64,000 nt of DNA, taken from assembly GCA_000004985.1 (NCBI GenBank), contig GG738875.1. One strand, 5' to 3'. The notes beneath the pieces were generated by a model. That model saw only the letters and a program-made list of their open reading frames with translations. It made no database searches and was not told the DNA's origin. Below are positions 1-45,327 of the stretch, in pieces. How positions within the stretch are numbered: position 1 is the stretch's first letter; every line of letters starts with the position of its first letter. This DNA is from Naegleria gruberi (Eukaryota). A program made the position numbers and the translations under genes.

Positions 1-3000
1 GAGATTCAACCTCTTTAATCTATTGCACAATTCTGCTCTGTTTACTGAATCCATAATAGGTAAATGAACCAGTTTTTTACGTCTACGGAGTGCCTCAAGC
101 CTAATATTTTCTGTTTTTCCGACACCAGATACATCTGATGAGTAAAGATAGGCTTTTGAAAATGGTTGAATAGCTTTAGTAGTGGTTGTGTTTGGAATAT
201 TTTGTAGGAATCGTTTGAATTGGTTTACAACATAGCTAGTTTGGTTTCCACTGGTATCTATCAAGCACAGTGAGCTCTTTTTTTCTAGATTAAGTTCTTT
301 GAGTCTATTAATTTTATCAACTAGTTGAGCTTGAAGTGAGAACGAAAGCTTCTCTATTTGTGCTATGCAATATAGATCACCAGATAGATTGTTAAAAAAC
401 GATCTTGAAACAATAGCATTAAGTGGCTGCCAAGTAGTACCATATTCACAAAATAGTACTGTGGAGGGTTTAGGAAGGCTATTAGTGAAAATTTTCAGGA
501 TTGTGCTAATGAGCTCTTTGTTTTCCACAGATAGGACTACAAAAGTATTTCTAAAGTAGGATGATACATTTGCATCAGATTTAACCTTATTGTGAAAGAT
601 TTTATCCAAAATCTTACCCAATCTTTCTAATCTATGTTCCATGTCTAATAGCTGTTCTTGTTGTTGGAATTGTATCAATTTAATTTCATTCTTGGATATT
701 GGATGGATAAAATTTAATAGAGGATAAACATCATCTACTGTGCCATTTCCAGAAAAATACCTTTCCAACACCCAGAATCGCTCTGGAGCGAAGAAATTCA
801 AAAAGAAATGTTTTCCTAAATAATTATCCAAAATGGTTTGCCAGTTTTGTGTTTCCGTCTCAATTTCTTGGATATTATCTGGCAATGCATCGAAATCTAT
901 TTTTTCAGAACAATAATCCTTATTGTTTCCCAAAGCTTTCAAATTGTTAATTTTTGTTAAGTAATCAAAAGCAAGATCACAATATTCTATAAACATTTCC
1001 ATATCATGGAAATTTCTTTCAAGAGATTGGTCTTTTCTTGAATTTATAATCAACAATGCTCCGCTTCGTAAATCTTGTATATCAGCTATACTGACTTGTT
1101 TTACCTGGTCGTCATTACCATTGTAAAGCAGAGATAAAATATAGGCAGTAACATTTTCCAATGAAACTCTAAAATAGCCAGATTGTGTGGCATTGTAAAT
1201 TGTTTCCTTTGTGAGCTCTCCTCTGTTAGCAATAGAGTCTAGCAGATTTTTCAAACCGTTAATAGAATGATTTGAGCTTTCGACCTTCACTACTAATTTT
1301 AAATCTACAACAATATTTGATAAACGGTTACAAAAATCTTGGATGCTTCTATATTCCTGGCTAATGATTGGCCTGATTAATTTGCTGGCCTCAATCAAAT
1401 CTGCCACTGTTTCTTGCCTTATAAAGTTTTCTCCCAAATCTTCAACTGCATTTACCAAAGCCATAATACTTTGTTGATCAGTCTCCTTAATGAATTGAAG
1501 GAGTGGAGAAGAAGTAGACAAGGCATCTAGAAAAAGACAGTCCATTCTAGCAAGAGAATAGGTGCTAATTATTTGCTCTACACGCTTACAAGTTTCAATC
1601 CAATTCGATTCTAAGCTCATATTCTTGAATTCATTTAATTCATCAATTTCAGTATCAATATCACCGATGTCAAGAGCATTTGAGCCAGTAATCTCTATAA
1701 TTTTTTGAACCAGCTCCATTACCTGTTTTGTAAAGAGAAGGGTTTTCAATTTGGTAGTAAGTTCTATTACTTTTTCATCACTTGCGTCAACAAGATTACC
1801 CAAAAATTTCACTTCATTTGTAATATTTTCTTTTTTGATAGCTCCTAAAATTTCAATAACTTTGGAGGAAGGTAGTATTCTCCCCTAAAAACAGTTCATA
1901 AGAAAAATGTGTAAGCTCTACACTTATAGCAGAACCAAGATCGATTATATCACTAACCAAGCTAGTATGTTTGCTTGTTCTCGCTTTAAGGAGTTTGGAA
2001 AAGGATTTTGACTGCTTGCAGCAAATGATAGTCTTCAAATTTTTGTTTTCAGCTCCAGATACAGATTGATTTTGGAATTCTGAAAAGCTCATCTTCATCA
2101 TGCCATCATATAAATCCTTATATTTCTTTTTCATCTTTTCGAAATCAGAACAATGGGTACAGTATGCATCAAGAATTTTTCTCATATCATTGATGTGTTC
2201 TTTGTATGTATTGATTTGTTGTATCATATCAGCAAGACTTTTAACACAATCCTCTCCGAGATATAACTTCAATATTTGATGATCATTGTTGTTCAAATTT
2301 TCAATTTTTTCCACTGTTACAGCTGCAAGGTTCTTCTTTAAAAAGTTAATCTTTGTGGTAATGTTCAAAAGTTTTGGCTCTGGTTTTAGAGTAAAGTACT
2401 TAATCAATAAAAACCAAGCATTGTCTTTAAACACTCTTTCCGTGTCCATCAATTCTAATATCTTCAAAAGGATGGCACGTAAGTGAGAAGTGTTGAACTC
2501 CTTTCCGCAACAAACACCATCAATGACATAAAGGTACAAGGGTACTTTTTTGCTTTGCAATTTTTTGATAGTAATTTTAATCACTTCAACCACAGATTCA
2601 TCAAGAAATTTAATTGGCAACGCACACGGTTCGTTGATGATCGTCTTTAAACAAAAATCCAACAGTGACTCATCAGTTCCCTTTTTCTCCAATCGAGGGA
2701 GAATAACCTCATGCACAGTATCTAGAAAATTCTTTCCAAGATTTACGGTACACAAGTGAAGATAATAAGTTAAATCTTCTACACGTACACCTCCGAAAGT
2801 AACTCTAGCGGCAAGCCATTTCTTCAGCTGATCTTTCAATTCATTGTTTTGGAATTTTTTTATAAATTTGCAATGGTGATAAAAAACTTTACAGTCTTTT
2901 CATTGTCGGTCAATTGCATGGTGCTAAGAAGTACTTTTAGTTTGTCTTCCTTCTTGATTTCAGATTGGTCAATGAGTTCTTGAATTCTGATCAATTCTGT

Positions 3001-4822
3001 TTCATCTTCCAAATCAACCTTTTCAGACAAAATCAATGCAACCATTTGTGTGTCAACAGATAAACTCAACTTGGGATAGTTTTCTCTAATTGAGAACAAC
3101 TTATCCATGTTGGATTCTGTACCAATTGCTTTCTTGAACTTGTCTTTAAATTCATATGAGTTTGAATATTCTGGATTCAGTTCTAAAATGAAATCAAGAT
3201 ACGTCATTCTAACTGGTAACGAATTCAAGAGGAAACGTGCCACTGCACCAACGTAAGGACTATTCAAAATGGCTTGCTTCTTTTTCATAAGGTTTTCCAT
3301 TATCTCACTCAAAGCTCCTTCGTTTGTTATTAAGTAATTAGTATGATTGTTCTTTACAAACTCATAACCTGTAATTTCGGTGTAATCTGAAGACAAAAGT
3401 CTTAAGGCAAAATCAGGAGTGAGACTGATGGCAATTCTGGTGAGAATAACACCTAAACATTTGGATATTGTTTTGTATTGCTTCATTTCTGAATTAAAGG
3501 GAACAGCTAAAAGAGAGTTGAAAATCAATTTCATATCATTAAATTGCAAATTGAATAGAGCATCTGACAATCCAAGTAGAGTACATATGATGAACCGAGT
3601 GTTAACATCTTCTGGGGTTAGGTTCTTCATAAAGGTCACAGCATAATAGAGATCAAGTTTTTTGTTTGATTGGACGAATGATGTTAATAAACTTTCTAAC
3701 TTTTCATAAATGTTTCTACCTGTTTACAGATATAACACGGCAATATTCTACAAGTCCAACAGTATGGTTTTGGTCGAACGCAAAACTATATCTACTTTCA
3801 CCAAGCATGACCATACAAGGTCTAATGTCATTGCCAGTGAAAAATCTATTTACTACATTCTTGGAAACGTGCATTTGTAAAACGACAGAATGGACATATG
3901 GATCAAAGTTACCTCTCATTACATAAAATTGTTGCCCAATCGGTTCCATCTCTCCCAATTTTCTTTTTCTATCATCAAAAACCTCTACCTTGCTGTATTG
4001 ATTGTTCTCTTGCCACAAATAGATGGTTCGTTTCAAGAATGCCTCATTGCTGACAATAGAACTGGAAGAAGTTGCTACCTGGTTGTCTTTTGTAATTGGA
4101 ATCTGAATCAGTCTTTTGGAGCGAGTACCCTTTCTGAAAAGTTTCGATCTTCTTCTCTTGTTGCTGATTTTCCTTACTCTCTGATACCACTGAAACAGTC
4201 TGTTGTTCGATTGTTTCTGGAGGATCTGAAATAGGAGGATATTGAACCTTCTTTGGTTCACTGATCGTACTGTTTTCGACTGCTGGTAACTCATTACCAA
4301 TAGTCTGATCAGTATCAATGTCCATATTATCATTCGATTGGTTACCACTTGTTTGATCGACTGGAGGTATGTGTGTTTGATCACCAGATGAAGTGCTAGT
4401 TCTAGGTGTTTGGGATTCGGTTGATGGTTTTGGAGGGCCTTCAGAATTCCCAACCCTATTCTCCTCTTGCACAGTTGTGGAACTGTTGGGAGGATTAGCT
4501 GTTAACATTTTTTTTGAGATGATGAGACGAAACGTGATGAAGTGTCAAAGTTTTATTTACCCAAAGGTTTGGAAACTGTTTGCCTCTCTGATCTTTGATT
4601 GGTACATGAAGAAGTTGCGTTGTGGACGCAGGTTGCCAATCCTCTTGTGTTCGAATTACAACAAGTGCATGGTCCTAAACAGACGAAACAAAACTTAAGT
4701 GAACAATTACTGCATAACATGTGACGACATCCTCTACCACTATGAGTATTTGGAGTAAAGAAGTCTGGACACAAACGCATTGAAGGCACTCCTGTAGCAA
4801 GAAATGGAGCTGATCCGTTCAT
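1..4822 (-). CDS. Large multi-exon gene, partial. Its N-terminus is near 4822 and its C-terminus lies beyond the window start. Product unassigned.
   Basis: Minus-strand ORFs 4553-4822, 4044-4508, 3716-4453, 2860-3639 and 1853-2839 are consecutive, and an open minus-strand frame runs off coordinate 1. A 63-nt GTAAAT...AACAG intron joins the first two in frame. The gaps 3640-3715 and about 2840-2859 look like introns. The first exon is Cys/His-rich and RING-like (CPDFF..H..C.H.LCSNCSLKFCFVCLGPC). It is followed by a Ser/Thr/Pro/Gln-rich linker. A Walker-A-like SSDVSGVGKTEN sits near coordinate 150. Exon phases were not fully resolved. Confidence 0.55.
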
Positions 4823-5145
4823 TGAAATATTCTATTCGAATCACGTTTAGTTACAGATGGATCAATTACGGATAATGAACCAATTAAAATACTTACAACT
4901 GTTTTGCATTTAGAGGCTGCGTCTTGTTTGTGTTCATTCATTTTTTTGTAATGAAAACTTCACGTTCAAGTCATCAATCAAATATAAAAAATGGAATGCT
5001 CATCATGTCACTTTGTGCTGCCATCATCAATGTTTGTTGGTTTTCCATTGAGTGATGACTGTGATCACATCACCACTTCTTGTTTATCTGTAGTTAGTTT
5101 ATTAGTACAAACATATATTTAACAAAATTTAAGTGTTTATTAGAA

Positions 5146-6048
5146 ATGGATAAATGTCCAGAAGATGGATTTCTCCTTCCGGAACAAACCAAGGATTTTA
5201 TCTCAAGATCTTTGAGAGGGCAACAAGTAGAGGTGAATGATCAAGAAATTAATGTGATTGAAACTCCACAAGTTGATGAACCAATCACTGTTCAAATTTT
5301 GACACTTGGTGGCTCAGTTTGTCAAGTTAAAACTAACAAGAAGCACTCAATCATCACATTGAAGGAAGAAATTGAGAAGTACATGGATATTCCAGTTGGT
5401 AAACAGTCGCTCTTCTTTAGGAATACAGAATTGGAGAATTACAATAATGGTATGTCAAGAAGAGTGGGAGATTTTGGAATTCAAGATAATGACAAGATCT
5501 ATCTCTCCATTTTAATGAAGGAAATTGATGTTGGAGACAATATCAATGCAGTGAAAGTTAGATTACAATGGAATTGGGTTAATTCTCGTGATTTCTTGGA
5601 TGGAATCGTCTACGTTCTCGATGGAAATAACAACATTACAGCAAGACTCGATTATGATAACAATGTTTCTCCTCTTTGTGGAGAATCAATCTTCCACAAA
5701 GGAGACGATATTGACAATGACAGAAAATTAGGATGTCAAATCATTGGCATGAACCTTGAAAACATTCCAATGTCTGTTCAAACTATTGTCTTTACTTTGA
5801 GCTCATACAGAGCATCTTCTCTCAGCTCCTTCAAGAATCCTCGTGTTCACATCGAAGAGGAAACAAGAGGTCAACCATTGGCTGGTTGTGATACTGATGC
5901 GATTAAATCTCAGGCAATTATTGTTTGTGCTTTTAGAAGATCACAACAAGGATGGAGAATCATTCAAATCAATAGAGAATCTTCAGGCAATGCACAAAAT
6001 GATTCTGCTCTCATAACATCCATTATTGATGTTGTCAGAAATTTGTAG
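5146..6048 (+). CDS. Fusion protein: ubiquitin-like domain followed by a TerD-family domain, 300 aa.
   Basis: Single ORF with an A-rich ATG context. Residues about 45-120 resemble ubiquitin (ITVQILTLGGSVCQVKTNKKHSIITLKEEIEKYMDIPVGKQSLFF). The C-terminal half matches the TerD/CABP1 pattern (GIVYVLDGNNNI...SIFHKGDDIDND...SVQTIVFTLSSY...NPRVHIEEE...AIIVCAFRR..GWRI). Confidence 0.6.
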   Translation: MDKCPEDGFLLPEQTKDFISRSLRGQQVEVNDQEINVIETPQVDEPITVQILTLGGSVCQVKTNKKHSIITLKEEIEKYMDIPVGKQSLFFRNTELENYNNGMSRRVGDFGIQDNDKIYLSILMKEIDVGDNINAVKVRLQWNWVNSRDFLDGIVYVLDGNNNITARLDYDNNVSPLCGESIFHKGDDIDNDRKLGCQIIGMNLENIPMSVQTIVFTLSSYRASSLSSFKNPRVHIEEETRGQPLAGCDTDAIKSQAIIVCAFRRSQQGWRIIQINRESSGNAQNDSALITSIIDVVRNL

Positions 6049-6059
6049 AATAAACTTTA

Positions 6060-6320
6060 TTAGAAGAAACTAAAAGATGAACCATCTTTGACACCAGAAA
6101 TAACAATATGATCACCATCAAATATTCTCAACTTTTTCAAGCTATCATTAAAACGATCATCACTATTATTAATAGAATCTTGACTTTCCTGTACGTAGAG
6201 ACTCATCTCTGAGCTATTGAGTTTAAATTCGATTCTTGCTGTGGCAGCAACTTCAGAGAGAGTTGTAGTTTCGGCTACTGTGATTTCCTTCTTGGTATTG
6301 TATTCAATCCAAATCTTCAT
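6060..6320 (-). CDS. Small 86-aa protein with a ubiquitin-like beta-grasp pattern and no C-terminal Gly-Gly.
   Basis: ORF MKIWIEYNTKKEITVAETTTLSEV...LKKLRIFDGDHIVISG has the spacing of a ubiquitin fold. It lies between two plus-strand genes. It is small, so this is tentative. Confidence 0.3.
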   Translation of the reverse strand: MKIWIEYNTKKEITVAETTTLSEVAATARIEFKLNSSEMSLYVQESQDSINNSDDRFNDSLKKLRIFDGDHIVISGVKDGSSFSFF

Positions 6321-6443
6321 ATTTTTTATTTATAATTTGCTTGGCAAGCTACGGGTGAATCGTGATTCTATTTGGACCTTTAGGATAATTCACGTTTCGT
6401 ATTTGCGTTTACAATGGGAATCGTGAAACAAAAACATAAAAAA

Positions 6444-9400
6444 ATGTCTGATACGCTCCTTCTCAGTCGTCAATTTAGTGTGTTTGGTGCCAATGAGACT
6501 CATCATATTGAAAACTGCAAGCTTTTGATCATTGGTTGTAATGGATTAGGCAATGAAGTTGGTAAGTTTTGTTTCGTCATTCATTCTCACAACAGTTTTA
6601 TAGCCAAGAACTTGATCATGGCAGGTGTGAAGAATGTTACTCTATTCGATCCGAAGGGTGTAGAATGGAGAGATTTATCAGGTCTTGTAAGTGAGAACAA
6701 TTCCACTTTTTCGAATACTTTTGTTAACATGATTATTCGAAACGTACTACAGACATTTGTTGGTTCGATTACAATGAAAACCAGAGCCAAGATCGTAATG
6801 GATTATTTGAAAGATCTTGCTCCCAAAACAAACATCAAGGAATCAACTGCAAAGACTTTTTCTGCATTATGTCAAGAAAGTTATCTCAGAGAATTCACTT
6901 TTGTTGTTTGTTGTGGTTATCCTCTTTCTTTGAATTCTAAACTTAACGAAACTTGCAGAAAGGTCGGTATACCTTTCCTTTGCTGTGATTCAAAGGGAGT
7001 TTTGAGTTATGTTTTTGAAGATTTGGGTGAAAATTATACCTACATTGTTGATGATGGTAAAACAAATTATGACACCTCAATTCCTATTGTTTCCATTCAA
7101 AAAGTTGAGAATTCTGATAACAAATATCAAATTATGTGTACTTCTACCTTGAGTGATGGGGTTCTTGTTTCATTCCATCAAATTGTTAACAAATCAATGG
7201 GTGAGGTCAGTGTTGAGGCAAAGAATGACAAGTCAATTGAAACTTCTGAGCATCTTAAAGAAGAATCTATTGATAAGGCTGCAACAACGTCTTCTGCCCC
7301 TGAAGTGAGTAATGAAGGGGAAGTTGAAACTGAAAAGCAAGAAAACATTCCACTTGAACAAACAAAACAAAACGAATCCAATATGAATCCTCAAAATTCC
7401 CAAGTCGAAGAAGAGGTGAACATGATGGAAATTCAAGAAAAATCACACCACCTCCTCGTGAAGAACTATTGGTCCAAAAATCATTCAATCTTCCTACTGG
7501 AAAGTTTAAAATTTCCAACTCTTCCAAGAACTGCTTTACAATTGAATGTGAAGATGAAATTAATCCTGAATGTTATGAAGGAGGATGTTTCTTGAAATTG
7601 GTACGAGAACAAAAAAGTGTTTCCTTTGTAAGTAGTTTTGAGTTTTTTCATGTTCAATTTGACAATGTTAATTAGAAACCATTGGAAGAATTGATTAATC
7701 ATTCCAAGGACAGTTTCTTTTACAATAGAAGAAAGCCAATTGACAATTTACAACTAATGTGCTTGAAAGTATATGATATCTTTGTTCAAGAAAATGGACG
7801 TTCTCCACTTCCATGGAACACTAAAGATTGTACTCAATGCAAGGATTTATCAATTCAGCTTATCAATTCCTATATTAATAATGATATCGTTGAAGACCTC
7901 AAAGGTTTAGAAAGCAAAGCAGAGCTATTCTTTAATACAAGCCAGCAAATATTGCACCATTGAATGCCATGGTTGGTGGTCTAGTTGCCCAAGAAACCTT
8001 GAAATCCATCTCCAGAAAGTACACTCCTCTCAAAGATGATCGAGCCCTTAATCAATTCCTTTTCATTGACAACTTTAATTTGGGTGATACTTTGGAAGAA
8101 TCAATAATGAAGGAAAATGTTCAAAATCTTAGAGGAACAATCTATGAAGGTGTTTCCCCACTTCTTACTGAGAGGGCAATTTCACATTTGAACGGAATGA
8201 ATGTTCTTGTGGCTGGTGCAGGTGCTGTTGGTTGTGAGGTTTTGAAAAATCTCTCTTCCATGATGGTGAGCACAAACAAGAACTCTTCGATTCATGTAGT
8301 TGACTATGATCGTGTTGCTCCTTCAAATCTCCACAGACAAATTTTATTTAGAGATTCAGATGCCAAATTAATGGAATTTAAGGCTATTGCTGCGAGTAGA
8401 AAGCTCAAGCAAATGAATCCAGATTTGAATTTGATTGCCAAAACTGAGAAATTATGCTATGAGAGTGAAGAGACTGAATTTCCTGAACAATTCTGGCAGA
8501 ATGTCAATGTCATCTTTTCATGTGTTGATAGCAAGGATGCAAGAGGTTATTTAAGCGATAAAGCTCAAATCCTTCACATTCCCATGATTGAAGGTGGTAC
8601 TGAGGGATCTAAAGGTTCCTCTCTCATCATTCACGAACAAGTTGCAGGTTATGGATCCTACATGAATCTGAATGCTTCAAGAGAGGAGGAAGTTGTAATC
8701 AATAATGCATGTATTCCATCCTTTGCAATTTATAAACCAGAGCAAGCCATAAGAAAGGCAGTAGAACTTTTCACATGGTTCTTTAAGGAAAATGTTGAAG
8801 TTGTGAATTTGCTTGGCAAACATGATCTTTCTGATGAGAAGGTTAAAGAAAATTATGAAATGTATAGAGATGGTCTTGAGAAACCAGAAAAAATGTCCAG
8901 ACAACTCTTTAATATATTGTTTGAGGAACAAATTAATGAAGCTGCTGCCAAATATAATGAAATCAATGAGAAGGGTAAGTTGTAAAATGTTGGAATTGTT
9001 CATAACCAAACTATTCGAAAGATGATGTCAAATTATTGTTGAGAAAACCACCCATTCAAGAAAAATTCAATGCTCATGACGAATCCCATTTAAGATTCCT
9101 CAAAGCATCCAATGCTATCATTAAGGAATTTAAAATCAAAAAGAAAAAGCTCACACCTATCCATTTTGAGAAAGATGAGGATTCTCATTTGGAATGGATT
9201 GTTTCCTGCTCTATTCTATTGTCCAAATGTTATGGAATATTCCATAATGGAGAGAGAGAATTTGTTAGAAGAGTTGCTGGACAAATTATCCCTGCCATCA
9301 TTACAACCACTTCAATGGTCTCAGGTTTCATGTGTCTCAATTTGTTCAAGTATGTCCAGACTGGATATAAGAATCTCAGTAATTTGGATTTTAATACTGC

Positions 9401-9632
9401 AAGTAATGGATATAGTTTCCATCATTGTGTTCAAAAACTGAAGAGTCCAGTCCCTGGAAAGTTAATTTCCAACTTTGAAACAGTTTCAGATTTTGTAATT
9501 TATCCTTCCACAACAATTACTGAATGGGTTGACTTTGTAAAGAGAAAGTATGAAATTGGAGTTGAAAAGATAACAATCTATCCAAAGTTTGATGTTTATG
9601 ACTTTGGATCTCTTCCATGGGGTGAAACGTAA
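6444..9632 (+). CDS. Canonical-type ubiquitin or ubiquitin-like activating enzyme E1 (tandem ThiF adenylation domains, FCCH, catalytic-Cys region, C-terminal UFD). Multi-exon, with apparent frame breaks.
   Basis: LSRQFSVFGANE...LLIIGCNGLGNEV|AKNLIMAGVKNVTLFD matches the first, inactive adenylation domain; the GT-AG intron 6562-6603 is 42 nt. PTGKFKISNSSKNCFTIECEDEINPECYEGGCFLKLV matches the FCCH segment. APLNAMVGGLVAQETLK...VLVAGAGAVGCEVLKN...VVDYDRVAPSNLHRQILF is the active ThiF domain. NACIPSFAIYKPEQAI aligns to the PICTLKNFP catalytic-Cys region. GQIIPAIITTTSMVSGFMCLNLFKY plus a roughly 95-aa UFD-like tail ends at a TAA at 9630-9632. A 48-nt intron at 7631-7678 removes an in-frame stop. 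The segments lie in three frames that no intron can reconcile at about 7420-7470 and 7932-7960. Confidence 0.75.
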
Positions 9633-9707
9633 GTTATTTGCAGGCAATCTGATTTTATATTCGAAACCATTTCTAGATTTTATGAAACTTTCAGCAAGAA
9701 TAGAACA

Positions 9708-10740
9708 ATGCAAAAGAAAGAATGGATTACCCTCATCAGTGAGACATACATTGATGGTTTTCCATACAGTTTCAAAACTCAAGTCAGAGTTTCTGTTCCA
9801 CTCAAACTGCAAAATGTTGAAGGATCGTGTTATTTGAATTCTGCATTGCAAGTTTTGCATTCATGTCATGAATTTGTTGAGCAATTGAGAAATAGCTCAC
9901 CAACAACACCTGTTGCAAAGGTTTTGAAATCTGTTTTTGAGGATAACTTTTCAAGAGTAAGTTTTTTCTTAATTCATGTTAATTTGAACCCAAAAAGTCC
10001 AAAATTAATGAACTCAGACGATTGACAAACAGATCAGACAAATATTCAGGAGATACACCAGTAAGTTTTTTTTGCCTAATCATCATCAAAATATTCTAAA
10101 TAATAATAATATTGACAACTAGAAATATGTGAGATCAATTTTTACTGAAATTTTAGGAGAGGAAGAAATTGATAGTGAACTCATCGATTGTAAACTGGTT
10201 GACTATTTCAGTTGGAAATCTCCTCAAATTTGTGATGTTTGTGAAGAGTGTCAACAGTCTATTAGAGGACCTATCAGACCCATTTCCTCTCAAGTTCTTC
10301 TACTTCAAGGAAATCCAAAAGTTTCCACTGAACAATTACTGAACAATAGTTTCTGTTTCGATTCCAATAACAAGTGTCAATGTGGAGGTAAAATTTTCAG
10401 ACACAAAATATTCCAATCCTGCCCAGAATATCTTCTCTGTGAAATTGAAAATCCACAACAAAAGTGGATTCCAAACAATTCTATCGAAACCAAAGTTTAT
10501 ATTGAAACAGTTGACTGTACTTATGAACTAGTTGGTGGAGCCATTTATAGTGGAAATAGAAGTGGTGGACATTGGAGAGCCTACTCAAAACAAGCTTATG
10601 GTTGGTTTAGTTGTGATGATTCAATGGTTTCCTATATTGGAACAACTATTCCAAGTTCATACTTGTTAGGAAGTGCCTTTGTGGCATATAAGAAAGTTGG
10701 CAATGATCCAACAAATGAAGATGAAATGGTTGATGAATAA
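9708..10740 (+). CDS. Ubiquitin carboxyl-terminal hydrolase (USP/UBP, peptidase C19), at least two exons.
   Basis: Cys box VEGSCYLNSALQVLHSCHEFVEQL sits in the exon ending at 9956, with a GTAAGT donor. His box GGAIYSGNRSGGHWRAYSKQAYGWFSCDDSMVS sits in the exon beginning about 10123. The intervening 9957-10122 is one 166-nt intron or contains a micro-exon whose phase I could not resolve. The ATG at 9708 lacks the usual A-rich context. Confidence 0.7.
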
Positions 10741-10899
10741 ACTAATGTACAATTTATTGACAAACTAATCGAATTGCCTTAGTTTCGTATGATGTTGTCG
10801 GAGAACACTCTCGAACTATATTCATTAATATTCGTACAAAAACTGGAAATTGCTTTTGAAACCAGTTTATTCAACAACAATCAAACTAAACATAAAAAA

Positions 10900-12141
10900 A
10901 TGAGTTTATGTATTGGTGGTTGTGGTTTCTATGGAACACCAGAACGTAGAGGATATTGTTCTTCATGTGAAAAAAAGCATCCGAATAATAATTCAAGTAA
11001 TTTAACAAATGACAGCTTCCAAAAATGGAAAGATGAGCATGATAAACAAAAAGAAGAGGAAGAAATTCTAAAGAAACGTTCTGCTGAATATTTAATTGAA
11101 AATCAACAAAAGAAAGTTCGTAATGAGCCTTGTGTGAAATTTAACATGTCGGAAGTCAGTATGTTGACAGATGGTGGATTATTTGTTGAGATTGTCAAGT
11201 TTTTGGAAGTTTCTGATATGTATCACATTATGCTGGCTTCAAAATCAATGAGTTCATTGGTAAATAATGAGTATATTTGGAAAATTTTATTCGAAAACAA
11301 ATATGGAAATGAGGAGAAACCAATAGTTGGAACTTGTTATGAAAATCTCAGAATGAGAGGAAGGTTTACAAGATCTGAAGTGTCATGGAACTATTTCACT
11401 GAAAATCCATGGGTATTAGAAAAGTTGCTCACCATTAAAATTACCAAAATTGGAAAAATTGGAAATCTCAATTCACCATTGGATCAATTAATTCCTCCCT
11501 CAATTAATAGACAAAACATCACTCAAATAATCAAACATTTATGGCAACCACTCAAAAATGACCTTCCACATCTTATTGAACTACTCACACAAAGAATCAA
11601 AAATCTCCTAGTTGTCAGAGATGAATTATCAAGATGGCATTTGATTTATGTTTTTAAATTACAATCAGAGGATGAAGAGGAAGATGAAGAGGATGAAGAG
11701 GAAAATGTTAGGTTTCTCTCAGGAGGTCTGCCTTACCATCCAGGAAACTCTGGAAATGAATTACAATTTGATTGGTGGGGGAAATGTCCAACCTCTCTGA
11801 AAAGTTTCATGTCAATTCATAATGGATTTGGTGATAATCCAAGTTTGGATTATAGTAAGGGAACTTTTGATAGTTCAGTATTTGTGAATTATCCAAAGTT
11901 TGATGGATTGGAAGTTTTGACGTTTCATCATGGTGCTGATTTGGATCAATGTAAGTATGATAATATTGTAAATTATTGTAATTTTCAATGAAATTGTAAA
12001 GGTTTTGTAAGAGATTCAGGAAGTTTAGAACTAGAACCAAAAACTGGTCAGTTCTGGAGAAGATATAAAGGTCGTCCATCACCTGAGATTTCATTTTACA
12101 AATTTATGGATTCGTATTATTCACAAGCTTTTCAAGAATAA
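10900..12141 (+). CDS. A20-type zinc finger plus F-box protein, two exons: join(10900..11950,12002..12141).
   Basis: N-terminal MSLCIGGCGFYGTPERRGYCSSCEKK is the A20 zinc-finger signature. An F-box-like stretch follows (LTDGGLFVEIVKFLEVSDMYHIMLASKSMSSLVNNEYIWKILFE), then an acidic EDEEEDEEDEEE tract. The 51-nt GTAAGT...AAAG intron restores the frame to a terminal exon ending ...YSQAFQE*. The true ATG is probably at 10900, in an aaaaaaATG context, not at the track start 10789. Confidence 0.6.
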
Positions 12142-12191
12142 CCGAAACATATCTATTCACTATCTGGCCATGACATTTTCGCAATAAAAAA

Positions 12192-13193
12192 ATGTCGTTA
12201 ATCATTGATGTTGGTTGCTATCAAACAAAGTTTGGACATTCAGATGAAAATTCACCTAAAATTATTTCAACAACAATTAGTGGAGAAAATCAAGAAGTGG
12301 AATATTTTGTAGATAGTAATGGACAATTAGTATCGGAGAAAGTTGGAGAATTTCTTGAAAATGTTTTTGGAATGGATGAGTATCCGGTTGTGATGAGTGA
12401 AAATCCATCATGGGAAAAGAAATTAGCTGATAAAAACATGTTTGAAATTTTATTCGAAAAGTTTCGAATTCCTTCTGTGAATATTGTTAATGAAGCAGAA
12501 TTAATCATGCTTGAGAATGGAAGAACTAATGGATGTGTTTTAAATTCTGGTCATGGAAATAGTTATGCTGTTGTGGTTCGAGATGGAAAATCTGTAAGTG
12601 AAACATTGGTGACAAGTGAATTGGGTGGACGAAACCTATCCGAATATTTGAAAAAGCTCATTTTGGAGAATAGAGGAATGGATATGAATCAATCTATTGC
12701 ATTCACCAAGTCTCTTACAGAATTGAAGGAAACTTTATGTTTAGTTTCGAATGATTATTCGTATGATATACAGCAAGCAGCAGAATTTGAAGAAAGTTTC
12801 TCCCTTCCAGATGGAAACTCAATAACTGTTGGATTGGAACGTTTCAAATCTTGTGAGGAATTATTTTCTCCTTCTCTCACCGAAACCATTGGTTTTCCAG
12901 AGCTAATTGTCAACTCGATTGACAAGTTGGAATTAGAATGGAGAAGAGACACATTTTCTAATATTGTTTTGGCAGGAGGAACGACAATGATTCCAAGATT
13001 TATGGATAGATTAAAGAGTGGTATTAAAGATTTGATTCCAACTGCCACTCCTGTCAACGTGAGAGGTTATTCCAATAGAATTCATTCAGCTTGGAGAGGA
13101 GGCAAGATATTGGCAAATTTGATGAATGGAAAATCGACATTTGGCATGAATATCAATAGGGAAGAATATGCTGAAAGTAAAAGATTGAATTAG
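12192..13193 (+). CDS. Divergent actin-related protein (actin fold, 333 aa).
   Basis: Single exon with an aaaaaaATG context. Actin-family motifs: IIDVGCYQTKFG (phosphate-1 region), VLNSGHGNSYAVVV, LAGGTTMIPRFMDRLKSGIKDL, and the IHSAWRGGKILANL C-terminal pattern. Confidence 0.7.
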   Translation: MSLIIDVGCYQTKFGHSDENSPKIISTTISGENQEVEYFVDSNGQLVSEKVGEFLENVFGMDEYPVVMSENPSWEKKLADKNMFEILFEKFRIPSVNIVNEAELIMLENGRTNGCVLNSGHGNSYAVVVRDGKSVSETLVTSELGGRNLSEYLKKLILENRGMDMNQSIAFTKSLTELKETLCLVSNDYSYDIQQAAEFEESFSLPDGNSITVGLERFKSCEELFSPSLTETIGFPELIVNSIDKLELEWRRDTFSNIVLAGGTTMIPRFMDRLKSGIKDLIPTATPVNVRGYSNRIHSAWRGGKILANLMNGKSTFGMNINREEYAESKRLN

Positions 13194-13203
13194 ATTTTTG
13201 ATT

Positions 13204-16200
13204 CTACTTCTTGTTTTTACAAATACATTGATGGAATATCCAATCTGATAATTGACATTCTCGTGAGCAGTAGTACACTTTTTTACATTCACCACATCTA
13301 CTCTTCACTCCATTTCTTGCACAAAAACAACATCTTGAAGGTTGACTTGTTTTGGCAGGATTGAAAGGTGTGTAATCTTCGGCCTGAAGGTCCGTTGTGC
13401 CTACTTTAAAGGTAATCTTTGAATCCTTTTGAGTGGATAAATGCATTGCAGTAAGCAGGTTTAAACAACCATTTTGAAGGAATGGGTTTGTTCCCATAGA
13501 TTCTTTCATTGCCCAATCTAATAATCCCAAAAATAGAGGATCATTCGTGATTCTAAAATCTTCCATAATATCTGATTTGTAACAAAGTACACCAATTGTG
13601 GATACAAGATTTGCTTTAAGTCTCTCTGGACCAATCAAGCACATTTTTACAAAGTACAACAATCCTCGTTCAGTATTCTTGAGAAGCATGTTTGCTAATT
13701 CTCTGCTTTCACTAGATAGAATTGAGAAGGATTGGGTGCTATGTCTAAATAAAGATACCTGCTCATCACTCAAGTTGTTGGTTTTTGGAGGAATGTGGTG
13801 CTGCACAGCTTTGATTAGTGTTTTAAGAAAATTCTCCTTCTCACTGTCTGACATTGTGCCATAATTAATTACAAAACTAAGAGCACGAATGGAATAATTT
13901 ACGAATTGAGTGTTGTACTTTTGATAATTTTTTAAGTAGCCATACGTTCTCTCCATAATCTTAAATTGTTTTTCAATTTGTTGCCTCATTTCGGGTGGCA
14001 CATTTTGAAGTATTCCGAAAATGACAGCCAAAGAGTTTTCATTTGTTTCCCACACAAGGAATTCCATATTATCAAGATATTCCAAAGCCATTTGAATTCC
14101 TTCCAAATTGTAAACTTCTTGAGGGAAATCCCATGAATAATATTGTACAATATCCATTAGTAATCTAGTAATTTCAGGATCTACAAGTTTGAATCCGGAC
14201 TTGAGATTTTTTTTCAATAGAGAAATAACATGTTCCATACCATTTGCATTATTAAGCATGTAGTGAACGTGATACCTCATCTCATTTTGATTAGCAAATA
14301 GTAGACAAACATCTTTGAATAGAGGGGCACCAAGTTGTTGGATTTTCACATCTTCTTGTATAAGTAAGAAAATTGAGTTATTAATCAAGTGTCCAATTAA
14401 TCCTCCTTCAAGCTTAAGAAGTACCTCTACGTATGATGATCCACCATACCAGTTTCTGATGGATTGGGTTGTTAGTGCAAGTAAGCTTTTCTTTTTGAAT
14501 CTGTCTTTACCAAACATTATCTTGGAGAAGAATTTATCAAAACATTTTTCTTGATTCAGTTTTGATTTGTTATCTTGGCTCATAAACATGAACATGTTAG
14601 AATAGAAAATATTGAGGTAGATAAGATCTTCATCACTAATATCATCAGCATGTTTGATTAACCTGCACCACTCCAGATCAAAATTCATTTTACACAACCT
14701 CTTCATACCTTCCGAGTCGAGTAACAATTCTCCCAATGTATCATCTTTGCAAGATTTTCCGCTGTTAATTGCAGAAATAGCCCTTTCCAATAATATCTTC
14801 ATTTCTTTAGAAAACATGCCATCAGAGAGCTTGTTAAATGTTGTTGAAGTTGGAATGTGTTGATTTAACTGAGACAGATTTTCATCGCCTACAGTATTAG
14901 ATGGAAGGTTGTAAGGCTGAAACATTATATTAGGTTCTGTGCTTGTTGTTTTGTTCTTTTTCTTTTCTATTTTTTTGGAAGCCTGTTCTACAGATTTTCT
15001 AATATTCTCAACATTGTCAAGTACTATTCCGTACCCTCTGACTGCTTTTTCTAAAGCATTGAACGAACTAATATTACCAGTATTTGCAGCAATCTCAATA
15101 CAGTTACATCCTTCTTTAGTTTTTTGCGTCATTAGTAATTGAGCAATCTTAATTTTATCTTTCATATCTTTACTTGTCTTTTCAAAATGGCTGAAAATTG
15201 CATTTACCAGTTCTTCGTTTCCATGAGATGCAACATATATCATAATAGAATTTCCTAAACTGTCTATTAACATAGGATTGGCTCCAACACTCAATAAATA
15301 TAAAACCAATTTTGGTCGATTACTCATACAAGCTGCGTGCAATGGTAAATATTTCACACCATTTGGGACTTGGTTTACATTAATTTTTTGCTTTCTATAT
15401 CCCAAAATCAAGCGAACTATATCCAAATTTCCCTGCAGACAAGCCTGTACCAGAGGTGTTAGCTTTGTAACCTTTTTTTCAATTAACCATGGTATGTTAA
15501 TATCTGGGACAGCTTGACTTTCAAGTAATATTTTCACACATGTTGCATGACCCTCAAATATTGCCATATTCAAAGAATCAGAAGATGGAATTACTTGATT
15601 GTCCAAAAGAATTTGTAAACAATTGGTATTTCCTTTAGAGCACGCCAATGCAGACAAAGTAAATAGCTCTTCATGAAGGTACTGGTTCTTGGATAACGCT
15701 CCAACTTCAATTAATGTCTGTGTGGCTTGAAAGTGGCTATGTGATACACTTACTGATAACGGTGTAAGTTTTGATTCATCTAATAAAAACTGGTCTGCTC
15801 CTAATTCTGTTACAAGAATATCTATTACTTGGGAATGAATACAGTTCTCACAAACAGAATGATCACAGGATGGTTTTCCAATCATACTAAAACCTCCCAT
15901 ATCTTTGGTAATAGGTGAGTTACCACTTGCTGCCAAGTGTAGAGAAGTGCTCCCATAAGAATTTTTCTCATTTACATCCAAATATTCCATAAAATTGTTA
16001 TCAATAAGAAATCTCAAAGAATCCACTGCTCCTGTTTCTGCAATCATATGAAGAAAACCTTGTCCCTTGATTTTAACCTTTGAAATTTCTTCCTTAGTAA
16101 TGATTTTCCCAGTGAAAAGAAATGAATTCAAGATAATTTCCAATGATTCTACAGAATTCCTTGATAGTGAAATAACAAAAGGAGATCCACTTTTTTCCTC

Positions 16201-17543: not shown

Positions 17544-18596
17544 TTACAGGTTGTTATTTGTACAATATTCATTTACAAGTCGTGAAATTCTCTTCAGATG
17601 GCCAATCTTCTTAATATTGAATTTATCCCGATAATCATCAGTGGTAAAGTTTTTAAGCTGGTCTACAGTGATCAACTTCTTCTTGGCGAAGACTTTCACA
17701 TATTCTCCCATTTCATTGGCATTCAACATGTCTTCTACGAGATAGGTTGGTGGTTTAGAGGTCTGAATGGAAACCACTGGTGATGATTCATTACTCAATT
17801 CAATCACTCGTGTAAGAAGGAAGGTTATAAATTCAGGTGTCTTTTTGAAGGTTGGCATAATTTCATTATTGAATTGCATTTTCAGTGCTAAATCTATTTT
17901 CTCCATACATCTATCGATGGATTCTATTGTTGTAAGATGTGAAATATTTTCCTTTCTGGATGGTGAGAAGGAGGTGGATGATTGATATACAGATTGTGCT
18001 AATTGTCTAATAGCACTTGGTAAATTTACACAGGTTTTACTTTCCATGTCGATGAAAGTATTGTAAAAGTTTTGGAACTGTTTCACTTTGAGGGAGGCAA
18101 TTTCACCAAGTTCTAAACTTGATGTAGGAGAGGTAATTTGTGGTCTATTCGCTTTGAATAATCCAAAAGGAGATGAGGAAGTAGATGGTGAAGGTGGACT
18201 CGATGTAGTTGGAGAAGCTCTCTTTTGTGTATTATTCGAATAACTATTTCTTATCAGAGCAATATGTTGTAGACAAGAAAGCATTTCTTCATTCTTTCTT
18301 CTCTTGAGATATTCCTTCAGAACTTCAATACAGTCATCGTTCAACTCTACAATTGCCTCTATTGAATGATAGAGTTTGAGTTGTTCCTGAATGGCACTTG
18401 GTGATCTACTTGTCATTTCCTCACTCTCCACCACTCTTACTAAGTGGTTATTCATAGTAGTAGTGGTAGTATTAGTTGTGTTAACAGAAGAACACGACAT
18501 ATCCAATCGAGGTAGAGTAGCCATCGTTATCATTTCTATGGAGCTGATGTTTGTTGTTTTTTTAATGATTTGAAAAGCCAGACGGAACCAACACAT
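17544..18596 (-). CDS. Protein with a C-terminal SAM domain.
   Basis: The C-terminus GEYVKVFAKKKLITVDQLKNFTTDDYRDKFNIKKIGHLKRISRLVNEY fits the SAM consensus. The upstream half is Ser/Thr/Pro-rich low complexity. The start may be M18596 or the downstream MITMATLP. Confidence 0.5.
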   Translation of the reverse strand: MCWFRLAFQIIKKTTNISSIEMITMATLPRLDMSCSSVNTTNTTTTTMNNHLVRVVESEEMTSRSPSAIQEQLKLYHSIEAIVELNDDCIEVLKEYLKRRKNEEMLSCLQHIALIRNSYSNNTQKRASPTTSSPPSPSTSSSPFGLFKANRPQITSPTSSLELGEIASLKVKQFQNFYNTFIDMESKTCVNLPSAIRQLAQSVYQSSTSFSPSRKENISHLTTIESIDRCMEKIDLALKMQFNNEIMPTFKKTPEFITFLLTRVIELSNESSPVVSIQTSKPPTYLVEDMLNANEMGEYVKVFAKKKLITVDQLKNFTTDDYRDKFNIKKIGHLKRISRLVNEYCTNNNL

Positions 18597-24263: not shown

Positions 24264-24321
24264 TTTTTTTAAATTAAATTTTATTAAAAACAATTTGGGC
24301 GGGAAACAATTTCAAAAAAAA

Positions 24322-45100: not shown

Positions 45101-45327
45101 GTGCTATGTATTTACAAATATTTAAAGAACTATTATTGTCCTTAAACAATAGTCAACCACTAATACTACCAGAAACTTTAACCAAAAATCTACTTGATTT
45201 TAATAAGAATATTATTACATTGTTAAAAGAAGAAAACTTGCAGCTTAAAACAAAGAATGAACAATTGGAAATGGAATTGATTAAATTAAGAGAAGAATTA
45301 ACTTTTCTTTCACACAAGAATAAATAG
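42102..45327 (+). CDS. Single-chain Rab5-like GTPase, DUF4116-like repeats and a protein kinase, about 1036 aa: join(42102..42174,42225..42357,42423..45327).
   Basis: Exon 1 [25 protein letters not shown] carries the P-loop GSSSTGKT across a 50-nt GTGAGT...AG intron. Exon 2 is [44 protein letters not shown]. Exon 3 begins [28 protein letters not shown]...[14 protein letters not shown]...[15 protein letters not shown]. The frame then runs straight into about six DUF4116-like repeats ([70 protein letters not shown]...) and a kinase domain ([32 protein letters not shown] in place of [12 protein letters not shown]). It ends in a coiled-coil tail. Confidence 0.75.

What the first reader, a model, noticed from the sequence alone, without database searches (positions are those of the whole stretch)
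5146..12141. Seven-kb ubiquitin-system neighbourhood in a eukaryote
Five consecutive genes all belong to ubiquitin-like conjugation, deconjugation or recognition. They are a ubiquitin-like plus TerD fusion, a small ubiquitin-fold protein, a tandem-ThiF E1, a USP deubiquitinase immediately after the E1 on the same strand, and an A20 zinc finger plus F-box gene. Functional clustering of this kind is unusual in eukaryotic genomes. It resembles the operon-like ubiquitin-like/E1/deubiquitinase/TerD associations seen in prokaryotic conflict systems. It may mark a dedicated, lineage-specific ubiquitin-like pathway.
Basis: partly seen in the sequence, partly recalled or inferred. Interest (0 to 1): 0.7.

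Follow-up and report, generated by a model that had tools for sequence, protein, structure and literature searches.

The report
Naegleria ubiquitin gene cluster, E1–deubiquitinase fusion
A 7.6-kb stretch of the amoeba Naegleria gruberi really does pack four or five ubiquitin-system genes side by side, and its centrepiece appears to be one unannotated gene that fuses a ubiquitin-activating enzyme to a deubiquitinase. That gene has no detectable orthologue and carries two frame breaks, so a working pathway is not shown.

Summary
The window is Naegleria gruberi. The domain calls hold. Clear: ubiquitin+TerD, UBA1-type tandem-ThiF E1, USP, A20 finger. Sub-threshold: the 86-aa ubiquitin fold and the F-box.

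New findings:
- The E1 and USP are most likely one gene. A GTAAGT donor overlaps the E1 stop codon, and a 48-nt intron joins it in frame to the USP.
- This E1 is absent from about 15 billion public proteins. The best hit is 35-40% identical, and none of the 150 nearest E1s carries a USP.
- The E1 half has two 1-nt frame breaks, near 7442 and 7942. This means a recent pseudogene allele or assembly errors.
- An RBR-type Rcat-like ORF lies just upstream, at 4553-4941.
- The 64-kb window holds no E2 and no modifier ending in Gly-Gly.
- Nothing ties the locus specifically to prokaryotic defence systems.

Synteny could not be tested because no orthologues were found. Verdict: a real, lineage-restricted cluster with an unusual E1-USP fusion. 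A dedicated pathway is possible but unproven.

The parts
4553..4941 (-). Small Cys-rich ORF with an RBR-type RING2/Rcat-like finger (…LCPDFFTPNTHSGRGCRHMLCSNCSLKFCFVCLGP…). Exons 4941-4897 and 4831-4553, with a GTAAGT…ATAG intron at 4896-4832. It may instead be the N-terminus of the giant gene downstream of it: a GTAAAT donor at its stop joins in frame to 4500.
   Evidence: PDB phmmer hits fall only on Rcat domains: ARIH1/HHARI 1.3e-4, and parkin. Pfam IBR_2 E 0.001, below threshold. Splice sites read. No RING1 or IBR was found.
5146..6048 (+). Single-exon gene of 300 aa with a ubiquitin-like domain (residues 47-122, internal, no Gly-Gly) fused to a TerD domain (residues 131-276).
   Evidence: Pfam ubiquitin 27.2 bits and TerD 43.7 bits, both above threshold. 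PDB ubiquitin and TerD 3ibz. Identical to an annotated N. gruberi 'predicted protein'.
6060..6320 (-). 86-aa ORF, a probable beta-grasp (ubiquitin-like or PB1-like) protein. It sits head-to-head with the E1 gene, 93-123 nt apart. Its tail …HIVISGVKDG-SSFSFF aligns with ubiquitin …LHLVLRLRGG.
   Evidence: Codon-usage score 0.32, like bona fide genes, against 0.08-0.16 for antisense ORFs. Weak hits to TUG-UBL1, UBL_USP40 and NPL4-UN and to NBR1 PB1. hhalign P 0.015. AF2 model uninformative.
6414..9628 (+). E1 part of the fused gene (start at 6414 or 6444). Exons 6414-6561, 6604-6686, 6753-7627, 7676-8974, 9022-9628. Domain order: inactive adenylation domain, first catalytic half-domain with an ~80-aa acidic insert, four-helix bundle, active adenylation domain (GAGAVGCE at 8215-8238), catalytic Cys (NNACIPSF at 8701-8724), shortened SCCH, first half of the ubiquitin-fold domain.
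7437..7444 (+). Frame break 1 (-1). The coding signal changes frame at an A5 run; A6 would restore …EIQEK-ITPPPREE….
   Evidence: No credible GT-AG intron fits. Codon-score switch at 7437-7460.
7940..7944 (+). Frame break 2 (-1), inside a conserved helix (…ELFFNTS/PANIAPLNAMVGG…). CCC in place of CC would restore the frame.
   Evidence: The profile of 91 E1s aligns without a gap across the break. MAFFT alignment. Too short for an intron.
9629..9676 (+). 48-nt intron whose GTAAGT donor overlaps the E1 'stop' (ACG|TAAGT). Acceptor TAG at 9676; an alternative CAG acceptor at 9694 is also in frame. It joins E1 to USP.
   Evidence: Sense-strand GTAAGT occurs only 0.1 times per kb inside long ORFs.
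9677..10740 (+). End of the ubiquitin-fold domain plus a minimal USP deubiquitinase. Exons 9677-9956, 9998-10060, 10123-10740. Cys box GSCYLNSALQ at 9822-9851, zinc ribbon CDVCEEC / CQCGG, His box GGHWRAY at 10564-10584, Asp in FSCDDS at 10606-10623.
   Evidence: Pfam UCH 49.6 bits on the spliced product. Ubp6/USP14 alignment. Motif coordinates.
10789..12141 (+). A20 zinc finger plus a probable F-box protein. Likely start at 10900. Intron 11951-12001. The C-terminal ~230 aa have no recognised domain.
   Evidence: zf-A20 28 bits. ZNF216 and Rabex-5 A20 fingers. F-box-like E 0.009 and hhalign P 4e-4. Gene model.

Best explanation
The locus is a genuine, very compact cluster of lineage-restricted ubiquitin-system genes in Naegleria gruberi. 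All are built from eukaryotic-type parts.

Its core is one multi-intron gene (6414-10740). It encodes a highly divergent UBA1-family E1 whose ubiquitin-fold domain runs straight into a minimal USP deubiquitinase.

Shown:
- The active-site motifs of both enzymes are intact.
- The junction is an in-frame canonical intron.

Inferred:
- The fused protein couples C-terminal processing or editing of a ubiquitin-like protein (USP) with its adenylation and thioester formation (E1).
- The neighbours supply accessory roles. The 86-aa beta-grasp protein, divergently transcribed from the same short spacer, is the best candidate partner or modifier.
- The A20/F-box protein would be a ubiquitin-binding SCF adaptor. 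The Rcat-like protein would be a thioester-type ligase element. The UBL-TerD protein would be a Ca2+- or ligand-sensing UBL-domain regulator or substrate.

In the assembled haplotype the E1 half carries two single-base deletions in short homopolymers. The gene is therefore either freshly inactivated or mis-assembled. That probably explains why it is missing from public protein sets.
For: Organism. Domains.

Fusion:
- All seven GTAAGT sites in 6400-10800 lie at ends of exon ORFs.
- Sense-strand GTAAGT is rare inside ORFs, 0.1 per kb.
- The 48-nt intron matches its neighbours (41-66 nt). Both possible acceptors keep the USP frame.
- A profile of 91 full-length E1s stops at position 944 of 1011 with only 16 residues left before the stop codon. 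Splicing leaves 59 residues before the USP Cys box, about the length needed to finish the ubiquitin-fold domain.

Lineage restriction:
- The exhaustive search gave 5100 E1 hits, the best at 132 bits and 35-40% identity, with no self hit.
- None of the top 150 carries a USP region.
- Word-indexed, metagenome and viral scans found no relatives.

Other support:
- The 86-aa ORF has gene-like codon usage.
- The Rcat-like neighbour.
- The same exact 14-mer, AACATAAAAAAATG, sits at the likely start codons of the E1 and A20/F-box genes.
Against: - Two frame breaks sit in the E1 half, while about 30 kb of other long ORFs in the window are intact. A pseudogene is therefore a real possibility.
- No transcript evidence for the splice was available.
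- The window holds no E2 and no modifier ending in Gly-Gly. The 86-aa protein would end in Asp-Gly after trimming, unlike every known substrate of UBA1-type E1s (Asp-Gly: read from the sequence; no Gly-Gly modifier; the rule about UBA1-type substrates is from memory).
- F-box genes are common here, with two more in the window. Tight spacing also applies to the unrelated actin-like and ankyrin neighbours.
- The functional link between the genes is inference from adjacency only.
Confidence: 0.55

Rival explanations
1. Chance neighbourhood. Ubiquitin-system genes, especially F-box and UBL-domain proteins, are numerous in N. gruberi. This is a coincidental run in a gene-dense region with no shared function. 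Only the E1-USP adjacency is meaningful, because those two are one gene.
For: - Two further F-box ORFs lie in the same 64 kb.
- Two of the five calls are sub-threshold.
- My estimate is about 0.4 chance runs of four per genome.
- The cluster holds no E2 and no conjugatable modifier.
- Equally tight spacing occurs with unrelated neighbours.
Against: - With the Rcat-like ORF the run is five genes, for which I expect about 0.03 per genome.
- An E1 is a rare gene class.
- The beta-grasp ORF and the E1 are arranged head-to-head.
- The E1 and A20/F-box genes share a start-site 14-mer.
Confidence: 0.3
2. The E1(-USP) gene is a pseudogene and the cluster is a decaying relic of a lineage-specific duplication of ubiquitin genes. 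This can be true together with the best explanation, which describes what the gene was.
For: - Two independent 1-nt frame breaks lie within 500 bp.
- Other long ORFs in the window, up to 1308 aa, are intact.
- The gene is absent from the annotated proteome.
- The sequence is very divergent and the SCCH is shortened.
Against: - There are no nonsense codons in about 1320 codons of an AT-rich genome.
- All catalytic motifs and all splice sites are intact.
- Codon bias is fully gene-like on both sides of each break.
- Both breaks sit in homopolymers, where assembly errors also occur.
Confidence: 0.45
3. E1 and USP are two separate genes. The E1 ends at TAA 9630-9632 with a truncated ubiquitin-fold domain, and the USP starts at ATG 9708.
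For: - An ATG-initiated USP ORF exists.
- Same-strand spacers of about 50 nt occur elsewhere in the window.
- Intron retention would produce exactly this pair of products.
Against: - GTAAGT sits exactly on the stop codon (chance about 0.001).
- Both acceptors are in frame.
- The ubiquitin-fold domain would lack about 50 residues.
- The stand-alone USP model is not in any public protein collection.
Confidence: 0.12
4. A conflict or defence island acquired from bacteria or a giant virus, analogous to prokaryotic Ubl/E1/peptidase operons.
For: - TerD is ultimately of bacterial origin (from memory).
- Prokaryotic E1-like proteins fused to a JAB peptidase exist (PMC1779556).
- The genes are compact and orphan.
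Against: - The E1 is closest to eukaryotic UBA1, UBA6 and UBA7.
- The USP, A20, F-box and Rcat domains are eukaryotic-type.
- No defence-model hits beyond the generic ThiF fold.
- No relatives in viral contigs.
- Eight spliceosomal introns and host-like G+C content.
Confidence: 0.04

Closest known systems
Canonical single-chain E1s (UBA1 / UBA6 / UBA7)
   Same: Same domain order: inactive and active ThiF domains, first catalytic half-domain, four-helix bundle, catalytic-Cys domain, ubiquitin-fold domain. GxGxxG motif and catalytic Cys are conserved. PDB E-values are 8e-68, 1e-63 and 2e-59.
   Different: Only about 30-40% identity in the most conserved domain. An ~80-aa acidic insert. SCCH shortened by at least 55 profile positions. 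A C-terminal USP domain. Two frame breaks. A survey of eukaryotic ubiquitin toolkits states that E1s use an exclusive set of accessory domains with little connection to other families (PMC4327156).
Prokaryotic JAB-E1 fusions ('6e' operons; Iyer, Burroughs and Aravind 2006, PMC1779556)
   Same: An activating enzyme and a de-conjugating peptidase on one polypeptide, with a small beta-grasp gene nearby.
   Different: There the peptidase is a JAB metalloprotease at the N-terminus of a single-ThiF bacterial E1-like module, in an operon. Here it is a papain-like USP at the C-terminus of a tandem-ThiF eukaryotic E1 with introns. This is a convergent analogy, not homology of architecture.
ISG15 system (UBA7 plus USP18)
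   Same: A paralogous UBA1-type E1 paired with a dedicated USP-family protease for a lineage-restricted modifier (from memory).
   Different: Those are separate, unlinked genes, and the modifier ends in LRLRGG. Here the two enzymes are fused and no Gly-Gly modifier is evident.
TerD-domain proteins (bacterial TerD; Dictyostelium CABP1-type, from memory)
   Same: The Pfam TerD domain is above threshold and similar to the Streptomyces TerD structure 3ibz.
   Different: Fused to an N-terminal ubiquitin-like domain. No relative with this architecture was found. I found no literature link between TerD and ubiquitin machinery.
A20-finger ubiquitin binders (ZNF216/ZFAND5, Rabex-5) and F-box adaptors
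   Same: The N-terminal A20 finger aligns with the ubiquitin-binding A20 fingers of ZNF216 and Rabex-5. An F-box-like helix bundle follows.
   Different: I know of no characterised protein with an A20 plus F-box combination. The F-box lacks the Leu-Pro motif and is below the Pfam threshold.

Membership tests
UBA1-type ubiquitin-activating enzyme (canonical E1) | Tandem inactive and active ThiF adenylation domains on one chain | tested here: met
   Pfam ThiF 210.8 bits in two stretches. The profile of 91 E1s aligns residues 7-989. PDB UBA1 8e-68.
UBA1-type ubiquitin-activating enzyme (canonical E1) | ATP-binding GxGxxG and Arg/Asp motifs in the active domain; catalytic Cys at the start of the SCCH | tested here: met
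   GAGAVGCE, SNLHRQILFR and NNACIPSF align with GAGAiGCE, SNLnRQFLFR and PvCTlknFP.
UBA1-type ubiquitin-activating enzyme (canonical E1) | Complete C-terminal ubiquitin-fold domain for E2 recruitment | tested here: inconclusive
   The profile aligns only the first half (to position 944 of 1011). The length is right only if the 9629-9676 intron is spliced.
UBA1-type ubiquitin-activating enzyme (canonical E1) | Uninterrupted reading frame | tested here: not met
   Two -1 frame breaks, at about 7442 and 7942.
USP (C19) deubiquitinase | Cys box, His box and Asp/Asn of the catalytic triad; Pfam UCH above threshold | tested here: met
   UCH 49.6 bits against a threshold of 23.9. GSCYLNSALQ, GGHWRAY and FSCDDS aligned with Ubp6.
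TerD family | Pfam TerD domain above threshold | tested here: met
   43.7 bits against 25.3, covering profile positions 18-173 of 187. PDB 3ibz E 0.0012. Ca2+-site residues were not examined in detail.
Conjugatable ubiquitin-like modifier | Beta-grasp fold with a free C-terminal Gly-Gly, or Gly-Gly followed by a short propeptide | tested here: not met
   The UBL of the TerD protein is internal and lacks Gly-Gly. The 86-aa ORF ends …VKDGSSFSFF. No ORF in the 64 kb matches a ubiquitin-like modifier or ends a ubiquitin-like ORF in Gly-Gly.
Ubiquitin-like beta-grasp fold (86-aa ORF) | Significant similarity to, or a model of, a beta-grasp domain | tested here: inconclusive
   Pfam TUG-UBL1, UBL_USP40 and NPL4-UN at E 0.003-0.04, all below threshold. 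PB1 E 0.04. hhalign P 0.015 over 26 columns. AF2 pLDDT 39.
A20-type zinc finger | C-x2-4-C-x11-C-x2-C finger; Pfam zf-A20 above threshold | tested here: met
   28 bits against 21.6. ZNF216 4e-5 and Rabex-5 2e-4.
F-box protein | F-box motif (about 45 aa, with Leu-Pro at the start) above threshold | tested here: inconclusive
   F-box-like E 0.009 (16 bits against 24.3) and F-box E 0.06. hhalign P 3.8e-4 in the correct register, with LTDGG in place of Leu-Pro.
RBR E3 ligase (for ORF 4553-4941) | RING1-IBR-Rcat triad | tested here: not met
   Only an Rcat-like finger is present (PDB ARIH1 and parkin Rcat, 1e-4 to 2e-3; Pfam IBR_2 below threshold). No RING1 or IBR was seen in the six-frame reading of 4400-5145.
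Prokaryotic Ubl/E1/peptidase conflict systems (6E/Bil, CBASS Cap2-Cap3) | Bacterial-type single-ThiF E1 or E1-E2 fusion, a JAB peptidase, an E2-like protein | tested here: not met
   The PADLOC E1-E2 hit is only 1e-9, against Ube1 at 1e-42. No JAB and no E2. The other four proteins hit no defence model.

The most novel reading that the evidence does not exclude
The locus encodes a private, self-contained ubiquitin-like conjugation system.
- The 86-aa beta-grasp protein would be the precursor of a new modifier. Its tail …VKDG|SSFSFF is in register with ubiquitin's …LRGG.
- The USP domain would trim it, and the E1 moiety of the same polypeptide would activate it.
- The adjacent Rcat-type Cys protein and the A20/F-box protein would act as ligase and reader, possibly without a dedicated E2.
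- The UBL-TerD protein would act as a Ca2+- or ligand-responsive regulator or target.
Probability: 0.1. Interest if true: 0.85.

Novelty: new variant of a known kind. Interest (0 to 1): 0.5.

Why it matters
E1 enzymes sit at the top of every ubiquitin-like cascade, and their domain make-up is very conservative (PMC4327156).

- A UBA1-type E1 carrying a deubiquitinase on the same chain would be a eukaryotic counterpart of the bacterial JAB-E1 fusions. It would suggest direct coupling of precursor processing or proof-reading to activation.
- Physical clustering of ubiquitin-system genes is also rare in eukaryotes. If it is functional, it offers a compact, testable candidate for a new modifier pathway in a deep-branching protist.
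- The gene is missing from public protein sets, so surveys of ubiquitin toolkits have not counted it.
- If it is a pseudogene or a chance cluster, the finding reduces to a lineage-specific curiosity.

Tried and rejected
- Word-indexed homology searches with ubiquitin-TerD, E1+USP and the E1 exon returned only the query's own record or distant canonical E1s. In one search I set the E-value cut-off too strictly.
- Exact look-ups of my gene models and ORFs found nothing.
- Metagenome scans (2 of 2) and viral scans found no relatives, so synteny could not be examined.
I assumed the structure predictor applies the same rule and submitted only window ORFs to it.
- AF2 single-sequence models of the 86-aa ORF and of the A20/F-box ORF were uninformative, with pLDDT 39 and 35. 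No fold search was run.
- I looked for GT-AG introns that would remove frame break 1. One 263-nt candidate (7201-7463) gives a canonical-looking junction. It is rejected because the interval has a strong in-frame codon signal and a poor donor.
- A 37-53-nt intron at break 2 is rejected because the flanking residues align without a gap to the E1 profile.
- My guess of a SUKH/SMI1 domain in the F-box protein's C-terminus has no Pfam support.
- The upstream giant P-loop gene has no Pfam or PDB match.
- The Ter-system paper (PMC4104200) is not held. Literature searches for an E1-USP or ubiquitin-TerD fusion found nothing.

Full report
**Identity and setting.** The 300-aa product of 5146-6048 is 100% identical to a 'predicted protein' of Naegleria gruberi on a 396-kb scaffold. 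The window is uniformly about 33-35% G+C. Its genes are closely packed and carry short GTAAGT…(T/C)AG introns of 41-66 nt.

**Checking the observation.**
- 5146-6048(+): ubiquitin (residues 50-122) plus TerD (residues 131-276), both above the curated cut-off. PDB hits to ubiquitin and to TerD 3ibz agree.
- The plus-strand ORFs 6414-7595, 7682-7963, 7960-8985 and 9036-9632 together make a UBA1-type E1. They contain two ThiF domains, a four-helix bundle and the end of the SCCH. On the spliced model, PDB gives UBA1 8e-68, UBA6 1e-63 and UBA7 2e-59.
- 9708-10025 and 10129-10740 are the Cys-box and His-box halves of a USP. UCH scores 49.6 bits against a cut-off of 23.9 on the spliced product.
- 10789-12141 begins with an A20 finger that aligns with the ubiquitin-binding A20 fingers of ZNF216 and Rabex-5.
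- Two calls are weaker. The 86-aa minus-strand ORF 6060-6320 has codon usage like real genes: 0.32, against 0.08-0.16 for antisense ORFs. It reaches only E 0.003-0.04 against three beta-grasp families and a PB1 domain, and P 0.015 in a profile comparison. An AF2 model from the single sequence failed.
- The F-box is below the Pfam cut-off (E 0.009). It aligns in register with an F-box profile (P 3.8e-4) but lacks the Leu-Pro motif.

**Gene models: E1 and USP are probably one gene.**
- Every GTAAGT on the plus strand between 6400 and 10800 lies at the end of an exon ORF. One of them (9629) overlaps the apparent E1 stop codon (ACG|TAAGT).
- Inside long ORFs of this window, sense-strand GTAAGT occurs only 0.1 times per kb. 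A chance occurrence on the stop codon has a probability of about 0.001.
- The first good acceptor (TAG, 9676) gives a 48-nt intron like its neighbours. Both it and the next acceptor (CAG, 9694) join in frame to the USP ORF.
- A profile built from 91 full-length E1s aligns up to profile position 944 of 1011 at residue 989. Only 16 residues remain before the stop codon. After splicing, 59 residues remain before the USP Cys box, about the length needed to complete the ubiquitin-fold domain.
- I therefore read 6414-10740 as one gene of eight exons. It encodes about 1324 aa: E1 (inactive adenylation domain, first catalytic half-domain with an ~80-aa acidic insert, four-helix bundle, active adenylation domain, shortened SCCH, ubiquitin-fold domain) followed directly by a minimal USP.
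- The catalytic motifs are all present: GAGAVGCE, SNLHRQILFR, the catalytic Cys in NNACIPSF, GSCYLNSALQ, GGHWRAY and FSCDDS.
- Retention of the intron would give a stand-alone E1 with a truncated ubiquitin-fold domain.

**Two frame breaks.** The E1 half cannot be read in one frame.
- Near 7442 the codon signal switches frame at an A5 run, and no credible intron fits. The acidic insert upstream is clearly coding in its own frame.
- Near 7942 the break lies inside a conserved helix. The residues on both sides align without a gap to the E1 profile.
- Both look like single-base deletions in short homopolymers (A6 to A5; CCC to CC).
- About 30 kb of other long ORFs in the window are intact. Two assembly errors within 500 bp are therefore not expected.
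- On the other hand, there is no nonsense codon in about 1320 codons, and all motifs and splice sites are intact.
- I cannot decide between a very recent pseudogene allele and local assembly error.

**Orphan status.**
- An exhaustive HMMER search of 1.84 billion cluster representatives with the most conserved exon (7960-8985) gave 5100 E1 hits. The best scored 132 bits at 35-40% identity, and there was no self hit.
- This means the gene is not in the annotated N. gruberi proteome, although that proteome is in the collection. It also means no orthologue of 50% identity or more exists in public protein sets.
- The nearest hits are unnamed environmental eukaryotes and a leech E1.
- None of the 150 nearest E1s has a USP region.
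- Word-indexed, metagenome and viral-contig searches found no relatives of the E1 or of the ubiquitin-TerD protein.

**Surroundings.**
- Upstream of the ubiquitin-TerD gene and divergent from it, a two-exon ORF (4941-4897, 4831-4553) encodes a Cys-rich finger. Its only PDB matches are the RING2/Rcat domains of ARIH1/HHARI and parkin (1e-4 to 2e-3), including the GC-x-HM catalytic-Cys motif. No RING1 or IBR is present, so it is not an RBR ligase by definition.
- That ORF may be spliced in frame onto a giant minus-strand gene. The giant gene runs off the left end of the window and has a GVGKT P-loop but no Pfam or PDB match.
- Downstream, the cluster ends at 12141. The next genes are an actin-related protein and an ankyrin/MYND protein.
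- No E2 and no Gly-Gly-ended ubiquitin-like ORF exists anywhere in the 64 kb.
- Two more F-box ORFs occur in the window, so an F-box neighbour carries little weight.
- My rough estimate uses p about 0.07 from this window and about 15,700 genes (from memory). It gives about 0.4 chance runs of four and about 0.03 runs of five per genome.

**How it most likely works.**
- Shown: an E1 and a USP with intact active sites joined by an in-frame intron; a ubiquitin-binding A20 finger; a UBL-TerD fusion; tight head-to-head and tail-to-tail packing.
- Inferred: the fused enzyme couples trimming or editing of a ubiquitin-like protein to its activation.
- The best candidate partner is the 86-aa beta-grasp protein, transcribed divergently from a 93-123-nt spacer. 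By eye, its tail HIVISGVKDG-SSFSFF lines up with ubiquitin's LHLVLRLRGG, which leaves a six-residue propeptide.
- However, Asp-Gly is unlike any known substrate of UBA1-type E1s (from memory), and the fold itself is unproven.
- The exact 14-mer AACATAAAAAAATG sits at the probable start codons of both the E1 (6444) and the A20/F-box gene (10900), and occurs nowhere else exactly in the window. This is a weak hint of shared control.

**Comparison with known systems.**
- The E1 is a member of the eukaryotic UBA1/UBA6/UBA7 class by architecture and motifs. It fails the intact-ORF criterion.
- The closest functional analogy to the fusion is the bacterial '6e' operon type, in which a JAB peptidase is fused to the N-terminus of an E1-like protein (PMC1779556). 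The peptidase fold, its position, the E1 type and the gene structure all differ, so this is convergence.
- The E1 exon scores 1e-42 against eukaryotic Ube1, but only 1e-9 against CBASS E1-E2 models.
- TerD, the USP, the beta-grasp ORF and the F-box protein hit no defence model. I found no paper linking TerD with ubiquitin machinery.
- The 'prokaryotic conflict system' reading is therefore not supported.
- A survey of eukaryotic ubiquitin toolkits notes that E1s use an exclusive set of accessory domains (PMC4327156). That makes an E1-USP architecture unusual.

**Verdict.** The cluster is real and lineage-restricted, and it is built from eukaryotic parts. Its novelty lies in the probable E1-USP fusion gene, which is unannotated and without orthologues, and in the possibility of a private modifier pathway. 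Three things weaken it: the two frame breaks, the absence of an E2 and of a canonical modifier, and the lack of comparative or expression evidence. Interest is moderate (0.5), and I rate it a new variant of a known kind.

Noticed in passing
window 4553-4941 (-): Two-exon ORF encoding an isolated RBR-type RING2/Rcat-like finger, with the GCRHM catalytic-Cys motif but no RING1 or IBR. It is divergent from the ubiquitin-TerD gene and extends the ubiquitin neighbourhood to the left of the reported coordinates.
   Followed up: partly
window 1-4508 (-), running off the left end: Giant gene with a disordered N-terminal region, long helical ORFs (2860-3639, 1853-2839, 1-1884) and a GVGKT P-loop near coordinate 100. 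It has no Pfam or PDB match. It may carry the Rcat-like finger as its N-terminus, through a GTAAAT…AACAG intron that is in frame.
   Followed up: partly
window 6433-6446 and 10889-10902 (+): The exact 14-mer AACATAAAAAAATG occurs only twice in 64 kb, at the probable start codons of the E1-USP and A20/F-box genes. The chance expectation is 0.39 even when one mismatch is allowed. It could be a shared initiator or 5'UTR motif, or simply the A-rich start context common in this genome.
   Followed up: partly
window 22416-24293 (-) and 53373-54446 (+): Two more F-box proteins with unusual partner domains: BRCT plus F-box, and F-box-like plus HMG box. F-box genes are frequent in this genome.
   Followed up: no
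window 37409-38251 (-) and 42448-45327 (+): DUF4116 repeat proteins. One combines a Ras-like GTPase, DUF4116 repeats and a protein kinase, a ROCO-like layout.
   Followed up: no
window 56190-56828 (-), 58536-59165 (-) and 17544-18596 (-): Two neighbouring paralogous RGS-domain genes, plus an RGS-plus-SAM gene further left.
   Followed up: no
window 34821-37372 (+): Arf-family GTPase with a ~620-aa N-terminal extension. The GTPase domain is split by a GTAAGT intron at the end of ORF 34821-36863. This served as an internal control for the rule that GTAAGT at an ORF end marks an intron.
   Followed up: partly
window 6048-6060, 12141-12192 and 13193-13204: Extremely short spacers: 10-11 nt between convergent stop codons and about 50 nt between same-strand genes. 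Neighbouring transcripts must overlap or share signals.
   Followed up: no
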